Shown here piece by piece: positions 985-27,779 of a DNA stretch of 30,140 nt. Position 1 is the stretch's first letter. Every line of letters starts with the position of its first letter. The notes under the pieces are model-generated. The model saw only the letters and a program-made list of their open reading frames with translations, was not told the DNA's origin and made no database searches. Where the stretch lies: assembly GCA_965649055.1 (NCBI GenBank), contig CBFGJG010000023.1, positions 1 to 30,140 on the forward strand, given 5' to 3'. The translations under genes were made by a program, and so were the position numbers. The DNA comes from a candidate division WOR-3 bacterium (GTDB lineage: Bacteria > Hydrothermota > UBA3072 > B12-G15).

Positions 985-1056
985 TTATTTCTTCTTTGTT
1001 GTTTTTTTCTTCGCTGTTTTCTTTGTGGTCTTTTTGCACGCTTTTTTTGTTGCCAT
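985..1056 (-). CDS. Unannotated 23-aa Lys/Thr/Ala-rich basic peptide (histone H1-tail-like), MATKKACKKTTKKTAKKKTTKKK
   Basis: Hand-translated; strong SD AAGGGAGGTGA just upstream of ATG, upstream TTGACA (1099-1104), terminator immediately downstream. Confidence 0.75.
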   Translation of the reverse strand: MATKKACKKTTKKTAKKKTTKKK

Positions 1057-1131
1057 GTTCACCTCCCTTAATTATTATTTAAACATTTTTTTTTATTTTG
1101 TCAATAGTTTTTTTTTATTTTTGAAAAAAAT

Positions 1132-1159
1132 TTGACAAATTTTTTTTGAAGAATATATT
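1132..1159 (+). promoter_or_regulatory. Sigma70-type promoter of the hyp operon
   Basis: TTGACA-N16-TATATT upstream of the AAGGAG SD of hypC. Confidence 0.6.
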
Positions 1160-1179
1160 TTGTAAAAAGGAGATAACAA

Positions 1180-1395
1180 ATGTGTTTAGGTATTCCGATG
1201 AAAATAATTGAAATTAATGGTGAAAAAGCATTGTGTGAAATTTCCGGAAATAAAATCTCGGTTTCAATAAAATTTTTGCCCGATGCAAAGGTTGGAGACT
1301 ATGTTATTGTTCATACCGGATTCGCAATTCAGAAACTTGATGAAAAAGACGCAGAAGAAACAATCACAATCTTAAAAAATTCAAAAATAATATGA
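1180..1395 (+). CDS. hypC: Hydrogenase maturation chaperone HypC
   Basis: MCLGIP N-terminus, VGDYVIVHTGFAI. Confidence 0.95.
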   Translation: MCLGIPMKIIEINGEKALCEISGNKISVSIKFLPDAKVGDYVIVHTGFAIQKLDEKDAEETITILKNSKII

Positions 1396-21197: not shown

Positions 21198-21692
21198 TTA
21201 CTTTTTCCAGATTCCATTTTTAATATCATTGAGAGTTTCATATATTCTAAAAAACAGTATCATCAATTCGCACAGTACACGCCAGAGAATAGGACCTACA
21301 AGTATAATAGTCCAACCTATTAATACTTGTATGCTTTCATAATACCCAAAATATTTTTCTGAGTTAAAATATATATAACTGATACCCAATATGACAATTA
21401 TTATTGAGCCAATCCAGAAAAAAATCTCAATAATTACTGGGGTTATCATTTTTCTGAATAACAAAAAATCACGCCATGGATTGTCGCCCTTTGGAACTGT
21501 TTGAATTGTTTCTTCTTTCAATGTTTCATCTTCTGAAGACATATTTATCGGTTCCTCATTATTTGTTATTATTGCAGTTTCGGGAATAACATTTTCAGTT
21601 CCACAATTTCTACATTTCGCTACATCACCGACTTTTTGAAATTTAGTAATGATAAACTCACCACACTTTTTACATTTGAATTTTAATGCTAT
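21198..21692 (-). CDS. Zinc-ribbon plus DUF4282-like membrane protein, 164 aa, probable ATA start
   Basis: FLLFRKMITPVII and GPILWRVLCE..ILFFRI.E.L..I motifs; frame stays open 50 codons upstream (CKKC, CRNC) to an ATA behind SD AAGGAGGT. Confidence 0.7.
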   Translation of the reverse strand: MALKFKCKKCGEFIITKFQKVGDVAKCRNCGTENVIPETAIITNNEEPINMSSEDETLKEETIQTVPKGDNPWRDFLLFRKMITPVIIEIFFWIGSIIIVILGISYIYFNSEKYFGYYESIQVLIGWTIILVGPILWRVLCELMILFFRIYETLNDIKNGIWKK

Positions 21693-21734
21693 AAATTACC
21701 TCCTTTTATTTTTGTATTAATTACTTTTCAATTT

Positions 21735-22043
21735 TTATATAAATCCTTTATCTGAATTTTTCAATTCCTTATATTTAGTCTCCGGAGGATTATAAAGGAT
21801 AATTCTTTTTTGTATAAAAGCTTTACCTGAACCACTTTTTAAATATTTTTCAAATGATTTAGCTGATAATTCATCTGCAAACACACAATACCAGATTAAA
21901 CTCCAAGGTGATTTAGACTTTGTATAACCAGAAAAGTTATTATTATGTTCCTTGATTCTACGAGTTAAATTTGTAGTAAATCCTATATAAATACTTTTAT
22001 CTTTTTTACTCTGAATGATATATACATAATATTTTCTTTCCAT
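21735..22043 (-). CDS. Small stand-alone GIY-YIG nuclease (start revised to MERKYY)
   Basis: YVYII...IYIGFT, LTRRIKEHN, PWSL, FEKYLKSGSGK; GGAG SD before ATG at 22043. Confidence 0.88.
   Translation of the reverse strand: MERKYYVYIIQSKKDKSIYIGFTTNLTRRIKEHNNNFSGYTKSKSPWSLIWYCVFADELSAKSFEKYLKSGSGKAFIQKRIILYNPPETKYKELKNSDKGFI
21780..21791. repeat. Remnant of the REP-like hairpin near the 3' end of the GIY-YIG gene
   Basis: CTCCGGAGGATT is identical to 22086-22097. Confidence 0.5.
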
Positions 22044-22068
22044 AAAGTTCTCCAATTTTTTAATGTTT

Positions 22069-22133
22069 TCCTCCTACGCCATAGGCTCCGGAGGATTTGA
22101 ATATCAATCCACCGAAGCTTCAGCGTAGGTGGA
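22069..22133. mobile_element. 65-bp inverted REP-like doublet, copy 1, inside the terminal CRISPR repeat
   Basis: TCCTCCTACGCCATAGGCTCCGGAGGA-TTTGAATATCAA-TCCACCGAAGCTTCAGCGTAGGTGGA between GTTT and CAATCCC of a repeat. Confidence 0.75.
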
Positions 22134-22217
22134 CAATCCCTTATAGGTAGGCTAAAAATAGAAAGTGATAGGAAAAAAGTTTATGATGTTCTTGGTTTCA
22201 ATCCCTTATAGGTAGGC

Positions 22218-22282
22218 TCCTCCTACGCCATAGGCTTCGGAGGATTTGAATATCAATCCACCGAAGCTTCAGCGTAGGTGGA
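22218..22282. mobile_element. 65-bp inverted REP-like doublet, copy 2, between two truncated repeats
   Basis: 64/65 identical to copy 1 (GGCTTCGG vs GGCTCCGG); same right junction to CAATCCC. Confidence 0.75.
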
Positions 22283-22441
22283 CAATCCCTTATAGGTAGG
22301 CTAAAAATTTAGTATTGTTAGTATTGTTGGATTTATAACAATATTGTTTCAATCCCTTATAGGTAGGCTAAAAATTTTCTGAATCTTGGAAAGAGTTGCT
22401 GGAATCATTGTGTTTCAATCCCTTATAGGTAGGCTAAAAAT

Positions 22442-22606
22442 CCATTCTATTATTGCAAATTCAAGATTTTTAATTTCAAAGAACAACATAATTTTACTTT
22501 CCTTATTTTAAATATACAAAGAATTCACTGATTGTCAATATATTTAAAAAATTTTTTTGAGTTGTCTAACCCTATATATTATTACATTATCTATAATCGA
22601 CGAAAA
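22442..22606 (-). promoter_or_regulatory. CRISPR leader with promoter
   Basis: AT-rich non-coding stretch between cas2 and the first repeat; TTGACA (22538-22533)-N16-TATATT (22516-22511) pointing into the array. Confidence 0.75.
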
Positions 22607-22870
22607 TCAAATGATATTTTCAAACTTTCCCTTTTCAATTCCCATTGATTCCCTTGCTGTATATAATTTTGACCTAAAAATATAAAATAATATTGAATCT
22701 TCATCTTTATTTATTGTCTTTCTTAGTTCCATCTTCAATTTTTCAAATTTTGCCTCAGTTATTTCACCTTCAAGTGCTGAATTCTGAACCCAGGTTAGAT
22801 ATTTACGAGCAATCTTTAAAACTTTTGCAACCCTTTTTACTTTTATATCATATACCATTATTAAAAACAT
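22607..22870 (-). CDS. cas2: CRISPR-associated endonuclease Cas2
   Basis: MVYDI, KYLTWVQNSALEGEIT, EDSI. Confidence 0.95.
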   Translation of the reverse strand: MFLIMVYDIKVKRVAKVLKIARKYLTWVQNSALEGEITEAKFEKLKMELRKTINKDEDSILFYIFRSKLYTARESMGIEKGKFENII

Positions 22871-22871
22871 C

Positions 22872-23864
22872 TTACCACCTCGCTATAAATGGTTCATATT
22901 CTTTCTCTCCCATTAAATGCTTCTCAAGCTTTAATGCCTCAAGATGAATTAAAGAACGATAAGATACATTTCTATTTAGCGACGGGTGCTTTATTGTTGT
23001 TTGCATCCTTTTATCCATCTCTTCAATAAATGTCTTTTTTCCTGAGTCTTCAAGAAATATACCTTGCATTCTTTCAACAAAATCTTTTGGTTTTATCATA
23101 TCCTTATTAACAAGAGTGAATATTATTCTATCAACTATTATTGGCTTAAAAATTTCTGCAATGTCAAGATTTAATGAGAATCTCCTAAAATTTGTAGTAT
23201 GCAAATATCCAATTCTCGGGTCAAGATGTGTCTTATAAATTTCACTCAAACAGATTACATACAAAAGGCTATTCCCAAAACTTATTAAAGCATTAACCCT
23301 GTTCTCTGGTGGTCGTTTCGTCCTCTCACCAAATTCAAATTCAGGGTCTCCAAAAATCTTATCAAATGATTTATAATATTGCTCCCGTATGTTCCCTTCA
23401 ATTGCCATAAGTTTTTCAACACTATCCTGTTCATCCAATTTCAATTCCAGTTCTTTAATATGTGCTATAGTTTCATTTATTTCAACTCCTCTGTTATTAT
23501 AATAGATTAAAACTTTCTTTATATTTTCTATTGCGCCTTTAACAATTCTTTTTGCAAGATTAAATCTCTTTTCTTCTGAAAGATAATGCTCTGCCTGTTT
23601 TAATATCATATACCCAGAATTATAATGCTCTCTTGGATAATATGTTCCAATATAATATCCATAATGATTAAAAAAATGAAGAATAATCTCTGATTGACTT
23701 AAAAATTCAAGCAATTTCTTGTTTACTGTTACTTCTCCAAATATATATATTTCACCAGTATTCTCAACTGGTATATATTTTCTTCCCTGTTCACTTTCAA
23801 AAAATATTGTGTTCTGTTTTCTATGAATTTCACCATCTGAAAAGATATATATACTTTTTTTCAT
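22872..23864 (-). CDS. cas1: CRISPR-associated endonuclease Cas1, subtype I-B-like
   Basis: FNHYGYYIG, MAIEGNIR, RTKRPPENRVNALISFGN, IGYLH, SLNLDIAEIFKP. Confidence 0.97.
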   Translation of the reverse strand: MKKSIYIFSDGEIHRKQNTIFFESEQGRKYIPVENTGEIYIFGEVTVNKKLLEFLSQSEIILHFFNHYGYYIGTYYPREHYNSGYMILKQAEHYLSEEKRFNLAKRIVKGAIENIKKVLIYYNNRGVEINETIAHIKELELKLDEQDSVEKLMAIEGNIREQYYKSFDKIFGDPEFEFGERTKRPPENRVNALISFGNSLLYVICLSEIYKTHLDPRIGYLHTTNFRRFSLNLDIAEIFKPIIVDRIIFTLVNKDMIKPKDFVERMQGIFLEDSGKKTFIEEMDKRMQTTIKHPSLNRNVSYRSLIHLEALKLEKHLMGEKEYEPFIARW

Positions 23865-25150
23865 CTATTTTCCATATGATTTTTCAAAATCCATTTCCAT
23901 ACAGGAATTATATTAACCTCTATTCCATCAATTTTAAAATCTTCTTCCATATCATAGGTAAGTATTGTCCCTTTTTCTAAATTCAATTTTTTACAACACT
24001 CTATTAACGCATTAAATTCTCTTTCTCTGTTATTTTTATTAATATCATAACAAACCTGATAAACTGATACCATTTTATCATTTTCTATAACGAAATCACA
24101 TTCATTTATGTTTTCAAAATAAAAGATATTTTCGTTTTTCTTTTTTATTTCATTGTAAACTATATTTTCTAATATTCTTCCATATTCTTCTGCTGTAACA
24201 AGTTTAGCAATTCCCACATCAATAAGATATATCTTTGAAGGATTCCTAATCTTTTGATAAGACGATTTTGAATATTTCTTTGTCTCAGAAATAATCATAC
24301 TTTGTTTAAAATATTCATAATATTTAAACAGGCTATCTTTTGAAAAAGGTATTTTTTCTTTAAATTGTTTATAAAAAGCACTTAATGAAAATTTTTGAGA
24401 GAAAGAAGTTAATATTTTATTCATTAAGGCTTGAAGTAATGAAATATTTGTAATTTTGTATTTTTCTACCAAATCTTTAAAAAATATTGAGCTAAGATAT
24501 TCTTTTATTATTTTTATTTTCTCAAATTCACTTTTTGATAATAATACTTCCGGATAACCTCCGAACTTTATATATTGATCAAAATAGTTTTTTACAATTA
24601 TCTTTTTTTCATTATAAATTATATTGTCATCAATATTAATATTATTTAATTTTAAAAATTCAGTAAATAAAAAAGGTGTAACTTCAATACTCCAAGCCCT
24701 TCCTCTAAGTGAAGTATGCATCTCAAATGGCATAATTTTAAAAGAAGAACCTGTTACAAAAATTTTTATCCCTCTTTTTTCTACTGCTCTTCTACAATAT
24801 TTTTCCCAACCCACAATATTTTGCAATTCATCAAATAAAAAAAACTTCTCTTTATTTATGAGATGTGGATTGAGTTCCAAAAAAGCTTCTTCTAATTTAT
24901 CGAAATCTGCAACAGTGAATTCTGTAAGTCTATCATCTTCAAAATCAATATATAAAGCCTCATTTTTATATGTTTTAAATAAATGATACAATATAAATGT
25001 TTTACCACTCCTCCTCGCACCGTAAAATATAACGACCTTGTTAGATGATGGGAAAATAATATTATCTCTTTTTACTAAAAATTTAATTTTGTTAAGAATA
25101 AAATCTTTATTAGAAATTATTATCTCTTTTATTTTTTCCTTAGATATCAT
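23861..25150 (-). CDS. AAA+ ATPase (AAA_14/DUF4143 type) with a C-terminal nuclease-like domain
   Basis: GARRSGKT Walker A, FLFDELQN Walker B, VTGSS, LRGR, GGYPE, KIYLIDVG, ECDFVI..YQVC. Confidence 0.88.
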   Translation of the reverse strand: MISKEKIKEIIISNKDFILNKIKFLVKRDNIIFPSSNKVVIFYGARRSGKTFILYHLFKTYKNEALYIDFEDDRLTEFTVADFDKLEEAFLELNPHLINKEKFFLFDELQNIVGWEKYCRRAVEKRGIKIFVTGSSFKIMPFEMHTSLRGRAWSIEVTPFLFTEFLKLNNINIDDNIIYNEKKIIVKNYFDQYIKFGGYPEVLLSKSEFEKIKIIKEYLSSIFFKDLVEKYKITNISLLQALMNKILTSFSQKFSLSAFYKQFKEKIPFSKDSLFKYYEYFKQSMIISETKKYSKSSYQKIRNPSKIYLIDVGIAKLVTAEEYGRILENIVYNEIKKKNENIFYFENINECDFVIENDKMVSVYQVCYDINKNNREREFNALIECCKKLNLEKGTILTYDMEEDFKIDGIEVNIIPVWKWILKNHMENR

Positions 25151-25174: not shown

Positions 25175-25669
25175 TTATATCCAGCAAAATTCATAATAAG
25201 CACAATTCTTACAGAAATTAATCCTTTTAGGTTCTGGTGGTCTATCTAATCTTATAATTTCATTTATTTTCTCAAATGTATTTTTTAATTCTATTTCTTT
25301 CTCAAGACTCAGTTCTATTTTTATTCTCTTTTTTTCCTTTGGTATTAAAAGTTCACCTGTTGAGATTATTCCGTTTTCTTTAAGTCTGAACAAATAGTAT
25401 AAAAGTTGCATCGTTGCTGATTTGAGAAATCTTGATGTTTTTTTCACCTCTCCAATTATTATTTCTTTACCTTCAAATTTTACAATATCTATCTTCATTC
25501 CTGTTGTCTCAAATCCTTTTTTTTCTCTTTCATAAGAATCTTCGTGTATAAGCCTTCCCAATTCAATCAAAGGATTTTCCTGTTGAGGGTTTAACTCATG
25601 TGCCATAAGCCATACTTCTCTTTTGCAGATATAATAATACCAGATTAAAGTACCTGTAATTCTTTCCAT
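25175..25669 (-). CDS. cas4: CRISPR-associated exonuclease Cas4
   Basis: YYYICKREVWL, GRLIHE, KIDI..EVKK, QLLYYL, CKNCAYYEFC. Confidence 0.95.
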   Translation of the reverse strand: MERITGTLIWYYYICKREVWLMAHELNPQQENPLIELGRLIHEDSYEREKKGFETTGMKIDIVKFEGKEIIIGEVKKTSRFLKSATMQLLYYLFRLKENGIISTGELLIPKEKKRIKIELSLEKEIELKNTFEKINEIIRLDRPPEPKRINFCKNCAYYEFCWI

Positions 25670-25847
25670 AATTTTAATCTCTCAATTCCAAATTTAATAA
25701 ATTGCATGATAGGAATTTCTGTTATATATTTTCTTATCCGAAAAGGAAAAAATACTTATATGTTTTTTAATTTTATTAATCAACATTCTTTTTCAATTTT
25801 TACCCGATTTTTGAAAACCAAATTCAAAATCTTCCGGTAGAGAATAA

Positions 25848-26567
25848 TCATTTAATAACGTATCCTATATCATTTATCTTGAATAAACTTTCGCTTGTTA
25901 TTTCTAATTCTATGAATGAAGGGTAAATAATACCATTTTCTTCTTTAATTGGAACAAGGTATGTTTTCAATGGGAGTTTTCCATTTTTTCTCTCACATCT
26001 TTCGTGCATCATATATATCTTTCCGTTCCCAGCTATTACTCGAGTTTTATCGGTAAAAGGGATTGGATATTCAGTTTTTATATTTTTTATCGAAGTATCT
26101 TCTGTAACATTTTTTATCAATATTTTATCAATAACAGATATAGGTGATTCGCTATCACCGCAGGTTATAGGGGTAGTTTTTACCGCAACAGTAATATCGC
26201 CAATGAGATTACTATCTTTAAAGATTGCACAGATTTGCAAATTTTTTGTATATGCAAATTGTCTTCCAAGTGCATTAGTAAATTTCCAAGGGAATATATC
26301 TTCCCATTTGACAACTACAGAAGTAATATAACTTTTTATAATGCAGGGCGATAAAAGCCTTGAACCTGTCCATATAATGTTCTTCTCAATCAATTTAAGA
26401 TATTCTATGGGATGTTTATCGTTTTTATATCGTTGTAAAGCATTTGCAAGCATTCCTATAATAGCAGATGAAGGCATTATAGGGAACGTCAGAGCAGATT
26501 GCCAAGTATATGGTATTCTGATAGAGTAAAGAGAATTAACCCTTATATCAAACACTATTGCATTCAT
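25848..26567 (-). CDS. cas5: Cas5, subtype I-A-like
   Basis: YSIRIPYTWQSALTFPIMPSSAIIGMLANA N-terminal motif, CGDSES G-loop; follows cas7. Confidence 0.85.
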   Translation of the reverse strand: MNAIVFDIRVNSLYSIRIPYTWQSALTFPIMPSSAIIGMLANALQRYKNDKHPIEYLKLIEKNIIWTGSRLLSPCIIKSYITSVVVKWEDIFPWKFTNALGRQFAYTKNLQICAIFKDSNLIGDITVAVKTTPITCGDSESPISVIDKILIKNVTEDTSIKNIKTEYPIPFTDKTRVIAGNGKIYMMHERCERKNGKLPLKTYLVPIKEENGIIYPSFIELEITSESLFKINDIGYVIK

Positions 26568-26571
26568 TGGA

Positions 26572-27510
26572 TTAACCTATCTTGTTTAGTAATTCTGCAA
26601 ATATCTGAGCAATAGTTTCCATCTTCCTTACTCCAGCAGGTTCTTTATCTCCCCAATAAAGAAGTGTTATATTTTCTGGCATAAGTCCTATTGTCTTGTT
26701 GATGTAATCTGAATATATAGGAGAAACCGGAAAAGGTAGCGGCCCTGATTCAGAATAAGCAATAAGGATTTCCACTGGGTTAATGTGTGGAATAGCGTGG
26801 GATAGCGACGCACCAATTTGTCCAGAAATTAAATAACGATAGGCATCAATAGCTACCTTTATTCTGTCCTTTCGACCATTATTATCATCAACTGCATACA
26901 TCTCTCCTGAACCAAAATTTGACTCTACAAGTCCAATTCTATCAACATCTAAAGCTGAAACAAAGGCGTAAAAACCCGAAGCATAAGATTTGTTAAATGG
27001 CATCATAACTGTAGGATCTGACGAAACCCTGTTATGAATAACCTGTTTAGACACAGTCTCTTTACCTAAAACTGGCATTAACCATGAGAACATAGCCCTT
27101 GAAATTCTTCTGGAAGAAATTCCTCTTTCTTCTTTACTTTCTGCTTCTTTTGCTATTAAATAACCATGAATATCGCAAGATGCACAGTCTTTAATAGCAT
27201 CATTCTCTAATTTTGAGATCTGAGCTAAACTACCATTACTTATTTTTCCTGGTTTTATAGGTTCCCCTGCCTTACATCCATCACATAGACCAACATTAGA
27301 ATATGGGCCATTTACAATCAAATGTTTCATGCCCTCATAATGCCAGTGTTTGAGCATTCTGCCTGATACTGCCGGAGCTTCGATTTTATTTCCATTTTCA
27401 TCAAGAAATTCCATTATCCTTATGTCTGTTACATTACCTGCAACTGTTTCGTTGTTTAGGTCATGGACATTTAATTGAACCTTTACTGCAAATGTTACAA
27501 ACTTGAGCAT
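26572..27510 (-). CDS. cas7: Cas7 (DevR/Csa2 family), subtype I-A-like
   Basis: LNVHDLNNE..AGN, PAVSGRMLKHWH, CDIHGYL, RRISR..FSW, HNRV, YASGFY. Confidence 0.88.
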   Translation of the reverse strand: MLKFVTFAVKVQLNVHDLNNETVAGNVTDIRIMEFLDENGNKIEAPAVSGRMLKHWHYEGMKHLIVNGPYSNVGLCDGCKAGEPIKPGKISNGSLAQISKLENDAIKDCASCDIHGYLIAKEAESKEERGISSRRISRAMFSWLMPVLGKETVSKQVIHNRVSSDPTVMMPFNKSYASGFYAFVSALDVDRIGLVESNFGSGEMYAVDDNNGRKDRIKVAIDAYRYLISGQIGASLSHAIPHINPVEILIAYSESGPLPFPVSPIYSDYINKTIGLMPENITLLYWGDKEPAGVRKMETIAQIFAELLNKIG

Positions 27511-27779
27511 TTTAAACCTCCTGTTAAATTTCTTTTTTCTTTAATTCCTTTAACATAATTTTTGATCTTTTTATGGAGTAATGGGATTTTATTTTTTACA
27601 ATATTCCAAAAAAGTTTATAATCTTTATCAAGGTATTCGTGGAAAAGTATATCTATATCGCTTCTTTTTGTCTTCACTTTTATTTGGGCATCAAAAATTT
27701 CTTTAACTTTAAATCTCTTTTTTATTTTAATTGTATGCTCTTTTAATTTTTTCGTTATTTTGTTATTTATTTTGTTCAT
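27495..27779 (-). pseudogene. Probable collapsed MNT antitoxin/HEPN (DUF86, HepT-like) toxin relic, 94-aa open frame
   Basis: KLKEH...IKKRFKVKEI resembles an MNT N-terminus; DILFHEY..DYKLFWNIVKNKIPLL resembles a DUF86 C-terminus lacking the Arg of RX4H. Confidence 0.55.

What the first reader, a model, noticed from the sequence alone, without database searches (positions are those of the whole stretch)
22065..22308. 65-bp hairpin-doublet element at the same base of two CRISPR repeats
Seen: copy 1 splits a repeat cleanly as GTTT|element|CAATCCCTTATAGGTAGGCTAAAAAT with no target duplication. Copy 2 (64/65 identical) has the same right junction and abuts GTTTCAATCCCTTATAGGTAGGC on the left, which means either a 19-20-bp repeat duplication or loss of one spacer. 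A normal 35-bp spacer lies between the copies. The halves are inverted members of one family with compensatory changes: TCCTCC-TAC-GCC-ATA-GGC-TTC-GGAGGA versus TCCACC-TAC-GCT-GA-AGC-TTC-GGTGGA, so the stems covary while the TAC/TTC internal loop is kept. Normal Cas1-Cas2 acquisition gives ~36-bp spacers between full repeats, which this is not. Inference: a non-autonomous element that targets, or spreads by conversion between, CRISPR repeats. I know no description of this, but cannot search.
Basis: partly seen in the sequence, partly recalled or inferred. Interest (0 to 1): 0.85.

Follow-up and report, generated by a model that had tools for sequence, protein, structure and literature searches.

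The report
Nuclease-hairpin cassette colonising CRISPR arrays
The two 65-base hairpin pairs are gene-less miniatures of a tiny selfish DNA cassette (a small nuclease gene between two hairpins) that lies right beside them and that, in several uncultured bacteria, sits at one fixed place in the repeats of CRISPR immune arrays.

Summary
The sequence facts hold: two 65-nt hairpin doublets (64/65 identical) lie at the trailer end of a short type I-B CRISPR array, both abutting repeat positions 5-30. They are the only copies in the 2.08-Mb genome. The adjacent 84-aa GIY-YIG nuclease gene (21790-22043, minus) is bounded by a degenerate repeat plus an h1 remnant on one side and by doublet 1 on the other. 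In a metagenome contig (L039) the same cassette, h1-GIY-h2, sits in mid-array as R[1-25]|cassette|R[5-30]. An identical cassette end abuts three unrelated spacer sets, two of them with different leaders. Doublets or cassettes with the same right junction occur in six further lineages. Close GIY homologues elsewhere carry the same hairpins and abut tRNA 3' ends. The nearest described system is the Ssn nuclease with its SRM hairpins (2025), which was not reported in CRISPR arrays, and the hairpins here fail the published SRM motif. Copy 1 is probably the cassette's right end, not a clean split of a repeat. Copy 2 is a solo miniature. The copying mechanism is inferred, not shown. Earlier notes of this scan describe tRNA-nested relatives on other DNA, none inside a CRISPR array. 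Verdict: a new variant of a known kind; interest 0.65.

The parts
21758..21780 (+). Degenerate repeat R* (18/23 identical to repeat positions 1-23). It is the left flank of the full cassette and the true end of the array.
   Evidence: It is the only place in the genome outside the array that matches R[1-23] with 5 or fewer mismatches.
21781..21789 (+). Remnant of hairpin h1. A 17-nt internal deletion relative to the L039 cassette has removed the hairpin core.
   Evidence: Alignment to the L039 cassette.
21735..22043 (-). GIY-YIG nuclease gene. The conserved 84 aa lie at 21790-22043. The reading frame runs on through the h1 remnant and R* to a stop at 21735.
   Evidence: Pfam PF01541, E 9.2e-19. 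Y8, Y19, G21, R29, H33 and E65 are invariant in 9 homologues. Best solved relatives are UPF0213 and SLX1.
22044..22068 (-). 25-nt stretch between the gene start and E1.
22069..22133 (+). Doublet E1: h1 22069-22095, linker 22096-22107, h2 22108-22133.
   Evidence: One X2 contig spans 21936-22159 exactly.
22134..22159 (-). Repeat positions 5-30 (as written on the plus strand).
   Evidence: Rfam CRISPR-DR2 partial hit, 26.6 bits.
22160..22194 (-). Ordinary 35-nt spacer S3.
22195..22217 (-). Repeat positions 1-23.
22218..22282 (+). Doublet E2, the solo miniature: h1 22218-22244, linker 22245-22256, h2 22257-22282.
   Evidence: An X1 contig covers 22199-22302 with one difference.
22283..22308 (-). 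Repeat positions 5-30.
22309..22441 (-). Intact part of the array: 37-nt spacer, repeat 22346-22375, 36-nt spacer, repeat 22412-22441.
   Evidence: Rfam RF01315, 44.4 bits each.
22442..22606 (-). Leader region between cas2 and the first repeat.
   Evidence: Position between cas2 and the array. Its role as leader is inferred.
22607..23864 (-). cas2 (22607-22870) and cas1 (22872-23864).
   Evidence: Pfam PF09827, E 1.2e-21, and PF01867, E 2.2e-99.

Best explanation
The 65-nt doublet is the gene-less miniature (h1-linker-h2) of a roughly 370-bp selfish cassette: hairpin h1, a gene for an 82-89-aa GIY-YIG nuclease, and hairpin h2. This cassette lives in type I-B CRISPR arrays. It occupies the place of a spacer and is flanked by repeat positions 1-23/25 on the h1 side and 5/6-30 on the h2 side.

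In this window the resident cassette runs from the degenerate repeat at 21758 to the repeat piece at 22159. E1 is its right end and carries an extra h1 plus linker. E2 is a solo miniature one spacer further in.

Inferred mechanism: by analogy with SsnA, the nuclease binds its hairpins in single-stranded DNA and nicks beside them. The break or displaced strand is then repaired or copied using the flanking CRISPR repeat sequence as a ready-made homology arm, so the cassette or its miniature is copied from one repeat pair to another in the same or another array. Unequal recombination between the flanking repeat pieces then makes tandem copies, deletes spacers and sheds the gene.

Shown: the anatomy, the fixed junctions, the gene-hairpin partnership, and an identical cassette end in unrelated arrays. 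Inferred: nuclease specificity, the copying step, and expression by read-through from the CRISPR leader.
For: 1. Full cassette in mid-array. In L039 the arrangement is R[1-25]|h1-GIY-h2|R[5-30], with five full repeats on one side and more than 30 on the other.
2. Homology to the window. Window 21758-22159 aligns with that cassette end to end: degenerate repeat, h1 remnant, gene, h2 and repeat. R* is the only extra repeat-like site in the genome.
3. Origin of the linkers. The doublet linkers resemble the cassette's subterminal sequences (by eye).
4. Recurrent right junction. It is seen in G082 (two tandem doublets), L049, L038, G173 (tandem cassettes; L058 and L081 overlap) and L037/L039/L050.
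5. Evidence of movement. The cassette end is identical in L037, L039 and L050, next to 16, 37 and 30 spacers of which 0 are identical. The leaders of L039 and L050 differ.
6. Gene-hairpin partnership. Strict hairpins lie near the gene in 8 of 20 homologue loci in the phylum, and these are 8 of the 9 best hits. The same holds in 3 of the 5 best loci of alphaproteobacterial MAGs that carry dispersed doublets.
7. tRNA-associated relatives. In four non-CRISPR relatives the hairpin abuts a tRNA 3' end.
8. Gene orientation. The gene points the same way as array transcription in 4 of 4 arrays where both are visible.
9. Intact nuclease. The catalytic residues are invariant.
10. Population variation. 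An X1 contig shows the variant E|R[5-23]|E without spacer S3, as repeat-mediated recombination predicts (one contig, depth 4).
11. Published analogue. SsnA cuts single-stranded DNA a few bases upstream of its flanking hairpins, and the authors call the layout IS-like (PMC11893778, sections read).
Against: - No filled and empty allele pair was found, so neither an insertion event nor its footprint has been seen directly.
- The four CRISPR-associated nucleases form one group in the tree. This also fits a single old capture carried along with the CRISPR locus.
- Within this genome the two copies lie 149 bp apart, so local duplication alone would explain them.
- The hairpins give 0 matches to the published SRM search motif. 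Nuclease activity and specificity are untested.
- A hydrolytic GIY-YIG enzyme cannot join DNA strands itself, so host recombination must be assumed.
- The G082 gene lies about 560 bp from its doublets and has no hairpins of its own.
- GTTT left of E1 has only about a 0.6% chance expectation. It may point to a clean hairpin-insertion mode that this model does not cover.
- The junction spacer S3-R[1-23]|E2 has no independent contig support.
Confidence: 0.68

Rival explanations
1. True cut-and-paste or copy-paste transposition into a single repeat, with staggered cuts 19-21 bp apart. The flanking R[5-23/25] copies would then be a long target-site duplication, not parts of two neighbouring repeats.
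For: R[1-25]|X|R[5-30] is exactly what a 21-bp target duplication would give. tRNA-associated relatives also carry a duplicated target piece of about 15 nt or more on the far side of the gene. Repeated insertion into the right-hand piece would give the tandem forms of G082 and G173.
Against: No transposase or integrase is encoded; the cassette holds only an 82-89-aa hydrolytic nuclease. The duplicated length differs between lineages (19, 20 or 21 nt). The sequence cannot distinguish this from replacement of one spacer plus 4 and 5-7 repeat bases.
Confidence: 0.15
2. A passive relic. One ancient insertion of REP-like hairpins and a GIY-YIG gene at the array trailer was inherited or transferred with the CRISPR-Cas locus, then duplicated locally by unequal crossing-over. 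There is no targeting and no current mobility.
For: Most cases sit at or near the trailer, the oldest part of an array (G000, G082, L049, L038). The CRISPR-type nucleases form one group. The two G000 copies are adjacent.
Against: The cassette end is 100% identical next to three spacer sets with nothing in common, and two of these arrays have different leaders within one assembly. In L039 the cassette lies in mid-array. The nuclease reading frames are intact with invariant catalytic residues in 4 lineages.
Confidence: 0.12
3. A co-opted functional part of the array. The GC-rich hairpins would serve the host as a transcription stop, a stabiliser of the last crRNAs, or a Cas6-released structured RNA.
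For: The position at the trailer end. The repeat piece upstream of each doublet keeps the part of the repeat up to four bases past the expected Cas6 cut site, assuming a cut 8 nt before the repeat end (recalled rule). The fold is strong: -15.7 to -17.5 kcal/mol, z about -5.
Against: No T-run follows either hairpin in the transcribed orientation. Rfam finds nothing but the repeats. The same hairpins flank tRNA-associated nuclease genes and are dispersed in other genomes. The L039 cassette interrupts an array instead of ending it.
Confidence: 0.04
4. An assembly artefact, with collapsed or chimeric repeats in a metagenome-assembled genome.
For: The genome is a draft of 85 contigs. No independent contig spans spacer S3 into E2.
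Against: An X2 contig reproduces 21936-22159 exactly, and an X1 contig reproduces R[5-23]|E|R. The same architecture is present in independent assemblies of six other lineages.
Confidence: 0.01

Closest known systems
Ssn nucleases with NTS/SRM hairpin repeats (Chenal et al., Nat Commun 2025, PMC11893778; abstract and sections 6, 7, 8, 10, 12, 17 read; supplements searched)
   Same: A single-domain GIY-YIG protein of about 85-95 aa. Its gene is flanked on both sides by 20-50-nt hairpin repeats. Copies of the hairpin are dispersed in some genomes that carry the gene. The authors already noted the IS-like layout.
   Different: The hairpins here give 0 matches to the published SRM degenerate motif, and their cores are absent from the paper's supplements (12 of the 14 files held were searched, files 13 and 14 were not). 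G000 has only four hairpins, all in the array. The main text of the paper does not mention tRNA genes, and its seven uses of 'CRISPR' concern tools, not arrays. CDD cd10448 membership could not be tested.
Tn7-like transposons that target CRISPR repeats (Chacon Machado and Peters, Mob DNA 2025, PMC11837452; abstract and section 8 read)
   Same: A mobile element specialised on CRISPR arrays, with close relatives that target tRNA genes. It has a fixed position and orientation relative to the repeat and is often near the last repeats.
   Different: Those elements are multi-kb TnsABCD transposons that insert in the spacer and leave the repeat intact. Here a roughly 370-bp cassette holding one 85-aa nuclease, together with a 65-nt miniature, overrides 4 and 5-7 bases of the flanking repeats.
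REPIN/BIME doublets with RAYT transposases (recalled; cited within PMC11893778, discussion)
   Same: Two inverted copies of a short hairpin separated by a short linker. The pair can fold as one long hairpin, and it is partnered with a single-copy gene flanked by the same hairpins.
   Different: The partner gene here is a GIY-YIG nuclease, not a Y1 (HUH) transposase. There is no genome-wide dispersal in G000. The doublets lie inside CRISPR arrays.
tRNA-nested GIY-YIG hairpin cassettes noted earlier in this scan (unpublished AI notes e1-3312499, e1-805624, e1-1277675 and others)
   Same: A tiny GIY-YIG gene plus conserved hairpins beside a duplicated piece of the target, with gene-less leftovers. 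I saw the same layout in tRNA-Asn and tRNA-Ser relatives of this nuclease.
   Different: The target here is a CRISPR repeat. None of the eight notes shown for the words 'CRISPR array GIY-YIG' (of 12 found) places a cassette inside a true array.

Membership tests
Ssn family (SsnA-like GIY-YIG ssDNA nucleases with SRM hairpins) | Single-domain GIY-YIG protein of about 90-100 aa with catalytic Tyr, Tyr, Arg and Glu | tested here: met
   PF01541, E 9.2e-19, 84 conserved aa. Y8, Y19, R29, H33 and E65 are invariant in 9 homologues.
Ssn family (SsnA-like GIY-YIG ssDNA nucleases with SRM hairpins) | Gene flanked on both sides by hairpin repeats | tested here: met
   Seen in L039, G173, L061, L063 and L064. 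G000 keeps an h1 remnant on one side and the doublet on the other.
Ssn family (SsnA-like GIY-YIG ssDNA nucleases with SRM hairpins) | Hairpins fit the published SRM degenerate search sequence | tested here: not met
   0 matches in window 21600-22500, in 9 related loci and in the whole G000 genome.
Ssn family (SsnA-like GIY-YIG ssDNA nucleases with SRM hairpins) | Assignment to CDD cd10448, or clustering with N. meningitidis SsnA | not testable with these tools
   No CDD library and no SsnA sequence were to hand. The paper's supplements hold no protein sequence matching the motifs searched. Best PDB relatives are UPF0213 BH0048 (E 2.3e-7) and SLX1.
Ssn family (SsnA-like GIY-YIG ssDNA nucleases with SRM hairpins) | Cuts single-stranded DNA a few bases upstream of the hairpin, and not dsDNA or RNA | not testable with these tools
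   Needs biochemistry.
REP/REPIN with RAYT | Partner gene is a Y1 (HUH) tyrosine transposase flanked by the repeats | tested here: not met
   The flanked gene is a GIY-YIG nuclease in every locus examined.
REP/REPIN with RAYT | Tens to hundreds of dispersed extragenic copies in the genome | tested here: not met
   Four hairpins in G000, all within 22069-22282. Four to eleven copies were found in four genomes of family f6.
IS200/IS605-derived miniature (PATE) | Insertion 3' of a fixed tetra- or pentanucleotide without duplication of the target, and a TnpA partner | tested here: not met
   A 19-21-nt repeat piece stands on both sides of E2, L039, L049, G082 and G173. No TnpA gene lies beside them.
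MITE (non-autonomous deletion derivative of an autonomous element) | Shares both ends with a gene-bearing element and lacks the gene | tested here: met
   The doublet has h1 and h2 of the cassette, and its linker resembles the subterminal sequence.
Free-standing homing endonuclease gene | The enzyme cuts the empty target allele, and the gene is copied in by repair | not testable with these tools
   No empty allele was found. By analogy with SsnA, the recognised hairpins lie in the element itself, which differs from classical homing.
Ordinary CRISPR spacer | 35-37 nt of unique sequence between two full repeats | tested here: not met
   The doublet is 65 nt, is present twice, and is flanked by truncated repeats.

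The most novel reading that the evidence does not exclude
Ssn-like nuclease-hairpin cassettes are a class of minimal, site-specific mobile elements. One lineage has switched from tRNA 3' ends to CRISPR repeats. It rides in spacer slots, uses the repeats of any array of that family as universal homology arms, is transcribed from the CRISPR leader promoter, and leaves 65-nt hairpin doublets as its MITEs. That would make it a parasite of the immune memory itself.
Probability: 0.45. Interest if true: 0.78.

Novelty: new variant of a known kind. Interest (0 to 1): 0.65.

Why it matters
The 2025 Ssn paper showed that tiny GIY-YIG nucleases cut single-stranded DNA next to their own flanking hairpins. 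It could only guess that the layout is that of a mobile element. Here the same kind of cassette is seen at a fixed position in CRISPR repeats in several lineages, identical next to unrelated spacer sets, and with gene-less miniatures beside it. This is comparative evidence that such cassettes move and choose their sites. It gives a concrete target (a 30-nt repeat) and a concrete substrate (hairpin plus repeat flank) for a bench test. It is also a second, unrelated case, after the Tn7-like elements, of a tRNA-targeting mobile element retargeting to CRISPR arrays, which suggests that arrays are a general safe harbour. On the practical side, arrays with over-long 'spacers' and truncated repeats are misread by CRISPR finders.

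Tried and rejected
- **Rfam.** At E up to 10 over 21600-22700, only CRISPR-DR repeat models matched, plus chance hits. Nothing matched the doublet.
- **Published SRM motif.** 0 matches.
- **Hairpin cores and protein motifs in the Ssn paper's supplements.** 0 occurrences. One search covered 12 of the 14 files.
- **Junction pattern in viral contigs.** 0 hits.
- **A wider cassette pattern for viral contigs.** Not accepted because of the gap-size rule. I dropped the step.
- **Earlier findings by sequence.** Nothing.
- **IS200/IS605-like idea, insertion 3' of NTTG.** I dropped it for two reasons. The alphaproteobacterial doublets that sit 'cleanly' inside other hairpins are probably copies of larger composite repeats and not independent insertions. 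The CRISPR copies also carry duplicated repeat pieces.
- **Idea that the repeat start mimics a tRNA T-arm, or shares TCCTCG with the tRNA-Asn 3' end.** The resemblance, seen by eye, is weak and the offsets differ. I keep it only as a lead, in view of PMC11837452 section 8.
- **Cas1-Cas2 off-register integration of a 65-nt prespacer.** It would give the same duplication, but nothing supports it and the cassette carries a gene.
- **Runs X1-X3.** Parts of the stretch had no contig cover (22160-22194 in X1 and X2; X3 laid nothing). This says nothing either way.
- **Literature searches that found no description of this arrangement.**
  - GIY-YIG, CRISPR repeat, mobile element, hairpin.
  - GIY-YIG with repetitive extragenic palindromic; 0 papers.
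  - GIY-YIG, tRNA gene, UPF0213.
  - SsnA, GIY-YIG, hairpin, from 2024.
  - CRISPR array, miniature inverted, inserted into, CRISPR repeat.

Full report
**1. What is in the sequence**

On the plus strand the 30-nt repeat stands intact at 22346-22375 and 22412-22441 (Rfam CRISPR-DR2 at 44.4 bits each). Two 65-nt elements lie at 22069-22133 (E1) and 22218-22282 (E2). They are 64/65 identical.
- Each is followed by repeat positions 5-30.
- E2 is preceded by repeat positions 1-23.
- A 35-nt spacer lies between the two units.
- Each element is hairpin h1 (27 nt), a 12-nt linker and hairpin h2 (26 nt, inverted). The outer 6-bp stems differ but stay complementary, and the T-A-C / T-T-C internal loop is kept.
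- As single-stranded DNA the 65-mer folds at -15.7 (plus strand) and -17.5 (minus strand) kcal/mol, z about -5. The best fold is one long hairpin, with h1 paired to h2.
- The element, and each half with up to 5 substitutions, occurs nowhere else in the 2.08-Mb, 85-contig genome.

**2. Context and orientation**

All cas genes are on the minus strand: a RAMP protein, a large subunit without a Pfam hit, Cas7 (DevR), a weak Cas5, Cas4, an AAA_14/DUF4143 ATPase, Cas1 and Cas2.
- Cas2 ends 165 nt from the repeat at 22441, and the repeat read on the minus strand ends in ATTGAAAC.
- I therefore take the array to be transcribed on the minus strand, from a leader at 22442-22606. This rests on recalled knowledge of type I repeats and on gene order.
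- The doublets then lie at the trailer end.
- Directly beyond them lies a minus-strand gene for a small GIY-YIG nuclease (PF01541, E 9.2e-19).

**3. The same thing elsewhere**

*Relatives of the host.*
- Among 101 relatives, the doublet as a whole was found only in G082 (75% identity). h2 alone was found in four genomes of another family of the phylum, f6, where it is dispersed.
- A strict hairpin pattern gave 4-11 hits in those five genomes, against 0 for the reversed control.
- In G082 two doublets stand in tandem between truncated repeats of a related CRISPR family, with the same hairpin|CAAT junction. A 67%-identical nuclease gene lies about 560 bp away.
- A junction pattern found only G000 and G082 among the 272 genomes of the phylum.

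*Genome collection.* The doublet pattern found 10 loci. One was the G082 record, whose title names a candidate division TA06 MAG. Nine were in three alphaproteobacterial MAGs, where the doublets are dispersed.

*Metagenome contigs.* The junction pattern found 21 loci.
- Five are hairpin-repeat junctions (L037, L038, L039, L049, L050).
- Seven are ordinary spacer-repeat junctions.
- Nine are unrelated sequence.

**4. The key locus, L039**

- One repeat position in the middle of a long array reads R[1-25] | h1 - GIY-YIG gene - h2 | R[5-30].
- Five full repeats and a degenerate terminal repeat lie on one side. More than 30 repeats lie on the other (39 full repeats in all).
- The hairpins of the doublet are therefore the two ends of a gene-bearing cassette of about 370 bp, and the doublet is that cassette without the gene.
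- Window 21758-22159 aligns with the L039 cassette from end to end. The aligned parts are:
  - a degenerate repeat at 21758-21780. It is 18/23 identical to the window's own repeat and is the only other such site in the genome;
  - an h1 remnant that has lost 17 nt;
  - the gene;
  - the right end, where G000 carries an extra h1 plus linker in front of h2, which is what makes E1;
  - R[5-30].
- The doublet linkers resemble the subterminal sequence of the full cassette. I judged this by eye.
- I therefore read E1 as the right end of the resident cassette and E2 as a solo miniature one spacer further in.
- The GTTT left of E1 is then the end of the 25-nt stretch upstream of the gene. No other lineage has it there (0 of 6). 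Its chance expectation is only 0.6% per position, so a clean insertion into a former terminal repeat is not excluded.

**5. Evidence for movement**

- L037, L039 and L050 carry a 100% identical cassette end and junction. These are followed by 16, 37 and 30 spacers with no identical spacer in common. One pair shares 30 of 38 nt.
- L039 and L050 come from one assembly and have different leaders.
- G173 has two cassettes in tandem, one with a broken gene, separated by R[6-25]. Three h2 copies lie in front of the array.
- G082 has the gene-less version of that tandem.
- One low-depth contig of run X1 shows E|R[5-23]|E without spacer S3, whereas a contig of run X2 reproduces 21936-22159 exactly. 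The first is the product expected from recombination between the repeat pieces.

**6. The gene-hairpin partnership is general**

- In the phylum, 20 places in 18 of 272 genomes encode a homologue at E up to 1e-15. Strict hairpins lie within the locus in 8 of the 20, and these are 8 of the 9 best-scoring.
- Three are in CRISPR arrays (G000, G082, G173).
- In four others the hairpin abuts the 3' end of tRNA-Asn or tRNA-Ser, and a duplicated tRNA piece lies beyond the gene.
- The four CRISPR-associated proteins form one group in a small tree (support 82/84).
- The three alphaproteobacterial MAGs with dispersed doublets each encode homologues (best E 1.1e-30, 3.2e-28 and 1.2e-12). Hairpins lie beside 3 of the 5 best.
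- Over all loci fetched (239 kb), 56 of 90 matches to the hairpin core alone have flanking 6-nt arms that pair with at most one mismatch. They use 14 different arm sequences. Many of these loci were fetched because they hold the hairpin, so this shows compensation and not frequency.
- The nucleases are 82-89 aa, with Y8, Y19, G21, R29, H33 and E65 invariant. The best solved relatives are a UPF0213 protein and SLX1.

**7. What is known**

- *Chenal et al. 2025 (PMC11893778).* They describe the Ssn family: single-domain GIY-YIG proteins whose genes are flanked by hairpin repeats (NTS/SRM). The proteins bind the hairpin in single-stranded DNA and cut a few bases upstream. The authors note that the layout looks like an insertion sequence.
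  - The main text does not mention tRNA genes, and it uses 'CRISPR' only for tools.
  - The hairpins here do not fit their SRM search motif and are not in their supplements.
  - I could not test CDD membership.
- *Chacon Machado and Peters 2025 (PMC11837452).* They describe Tn7-like transposons that target CRISPR repeats and descend from tRNA-targeting relatives. That is the same shift of target, in an unrelated and much larger element.
- *Earlier notes of this scan.* They describe tRNA-nested GIY-YIG hairpin cassettes in other genomes. None is inside a true CRISPR array (8 of the 12 notes found were shown).
- Five literature searches found no description of this arrangement.

**8. How it most likely works**

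*Shown:*
- the anatomy;
- the fixed junctions;
- the partnership of gene and hairpins;
- an identical cassette end in unrelated arrays;
- tandem and gene-less forms.

*Inferred:*
- The nuclease nicks single-stranded DNA beside h1 on one strand and beside h2 on the other. In both cases this lies in the repeat flank.
- Repair or strand displacement then copies the cassette into another pair of repeats. The flanking repeat sequences, R[..25] and R[5..], serve as homology arms.
- The cassette therefore ends up in a spacer slot, and the neighbouring repeats lose 5-7 and 4 bases.
- A repeat lying between two cassettes becomes R[5-25], as seen in G082, G173 and the X1 variant.
- Recombination between direct copies of h1, or between subterminal repeats, sheds the gene and leaves doublets.
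- The gene points the same way as the array in 4 of 4 cases, so it may be expressed by read-through from the leader.

*Rival that sequence alone cannot separate:* true insertion into one repeat with a 19-21-bp target duplication.

*Less likely:* passive inheritance of one old insertion, a host function for the hairpins, or misassembly.

**9. Limits**

- No empty allele has been seen.
- There is no biochemistry.
- Most loci are short metagenome contigs.
- The CRISPR-type nucleases may represent a single capture.
- The junction S3-R[1-23]|E2 lacks independent contig support.
- The collection scans were capped at one each, so the count of lineages is a minimum.

Noticed in passing
window 23861-25150 (minus): A 429-aa AAA_14/DUF4143 ATPase gene sits between cas4 and cas1, inside the adaptation module of the type I-B operon.
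   Followed up: no
window 25669-25848; G000:C40:15366-16424: The cas operon in the window has no cas3 between cas5 and cas4. The only full match to the cas3 core family in the genome is on another contig (221 bits).
   Followed up: partly
window 27495-27779 (minus): A 94-aa ORF between the large-subunit gene and cas7 has a weak, below-threshold HepT-like match (E 0.002).
   Followed up: no
window 21735-21789: The nuclease reading frame in G000 runs about 18 codons further than in its homologues, through the deleted h1 and the degenerate repeat. The 17-nt hairpin deletion seems to have removed the usual stop.
   Followed up: partly
L004 (G082) 985-1390, minus strand: Between the G082 nuclease gene and its doublets lies a reading frame of about 125 codons with no start codon. 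It runs up to the degenerate terminal repeat and looks like a gene truncated by the array end (read by eye; not listed).
   Followed up: no
L003, L005, L025-L034: In family f6 genomes and in alphaproteobacterial MAGs, the hairpins and doublets sit nested inside the loops of other, unrelated hairpin repeats. They form composite repeat units that recur on several contigs.
   Followed up: partly
L037 spacer at 694 and L039 (reverse complement) spacer at 2232: Two otherwise unrelated arrays hold spacers whose last 30 nt are identical while the first 8 nt differ, as if they were taken from variant copies of one target.
   Followed up: no
L045, L052, L055: Three chance hits of the junction pattern are copies of a different hairpin repeat that begins CGTCATTGC. 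It resembles the CGTC-tagged NTS/SRM type of the Ssn paper (resemblance judged by eye).
   Followed up: no
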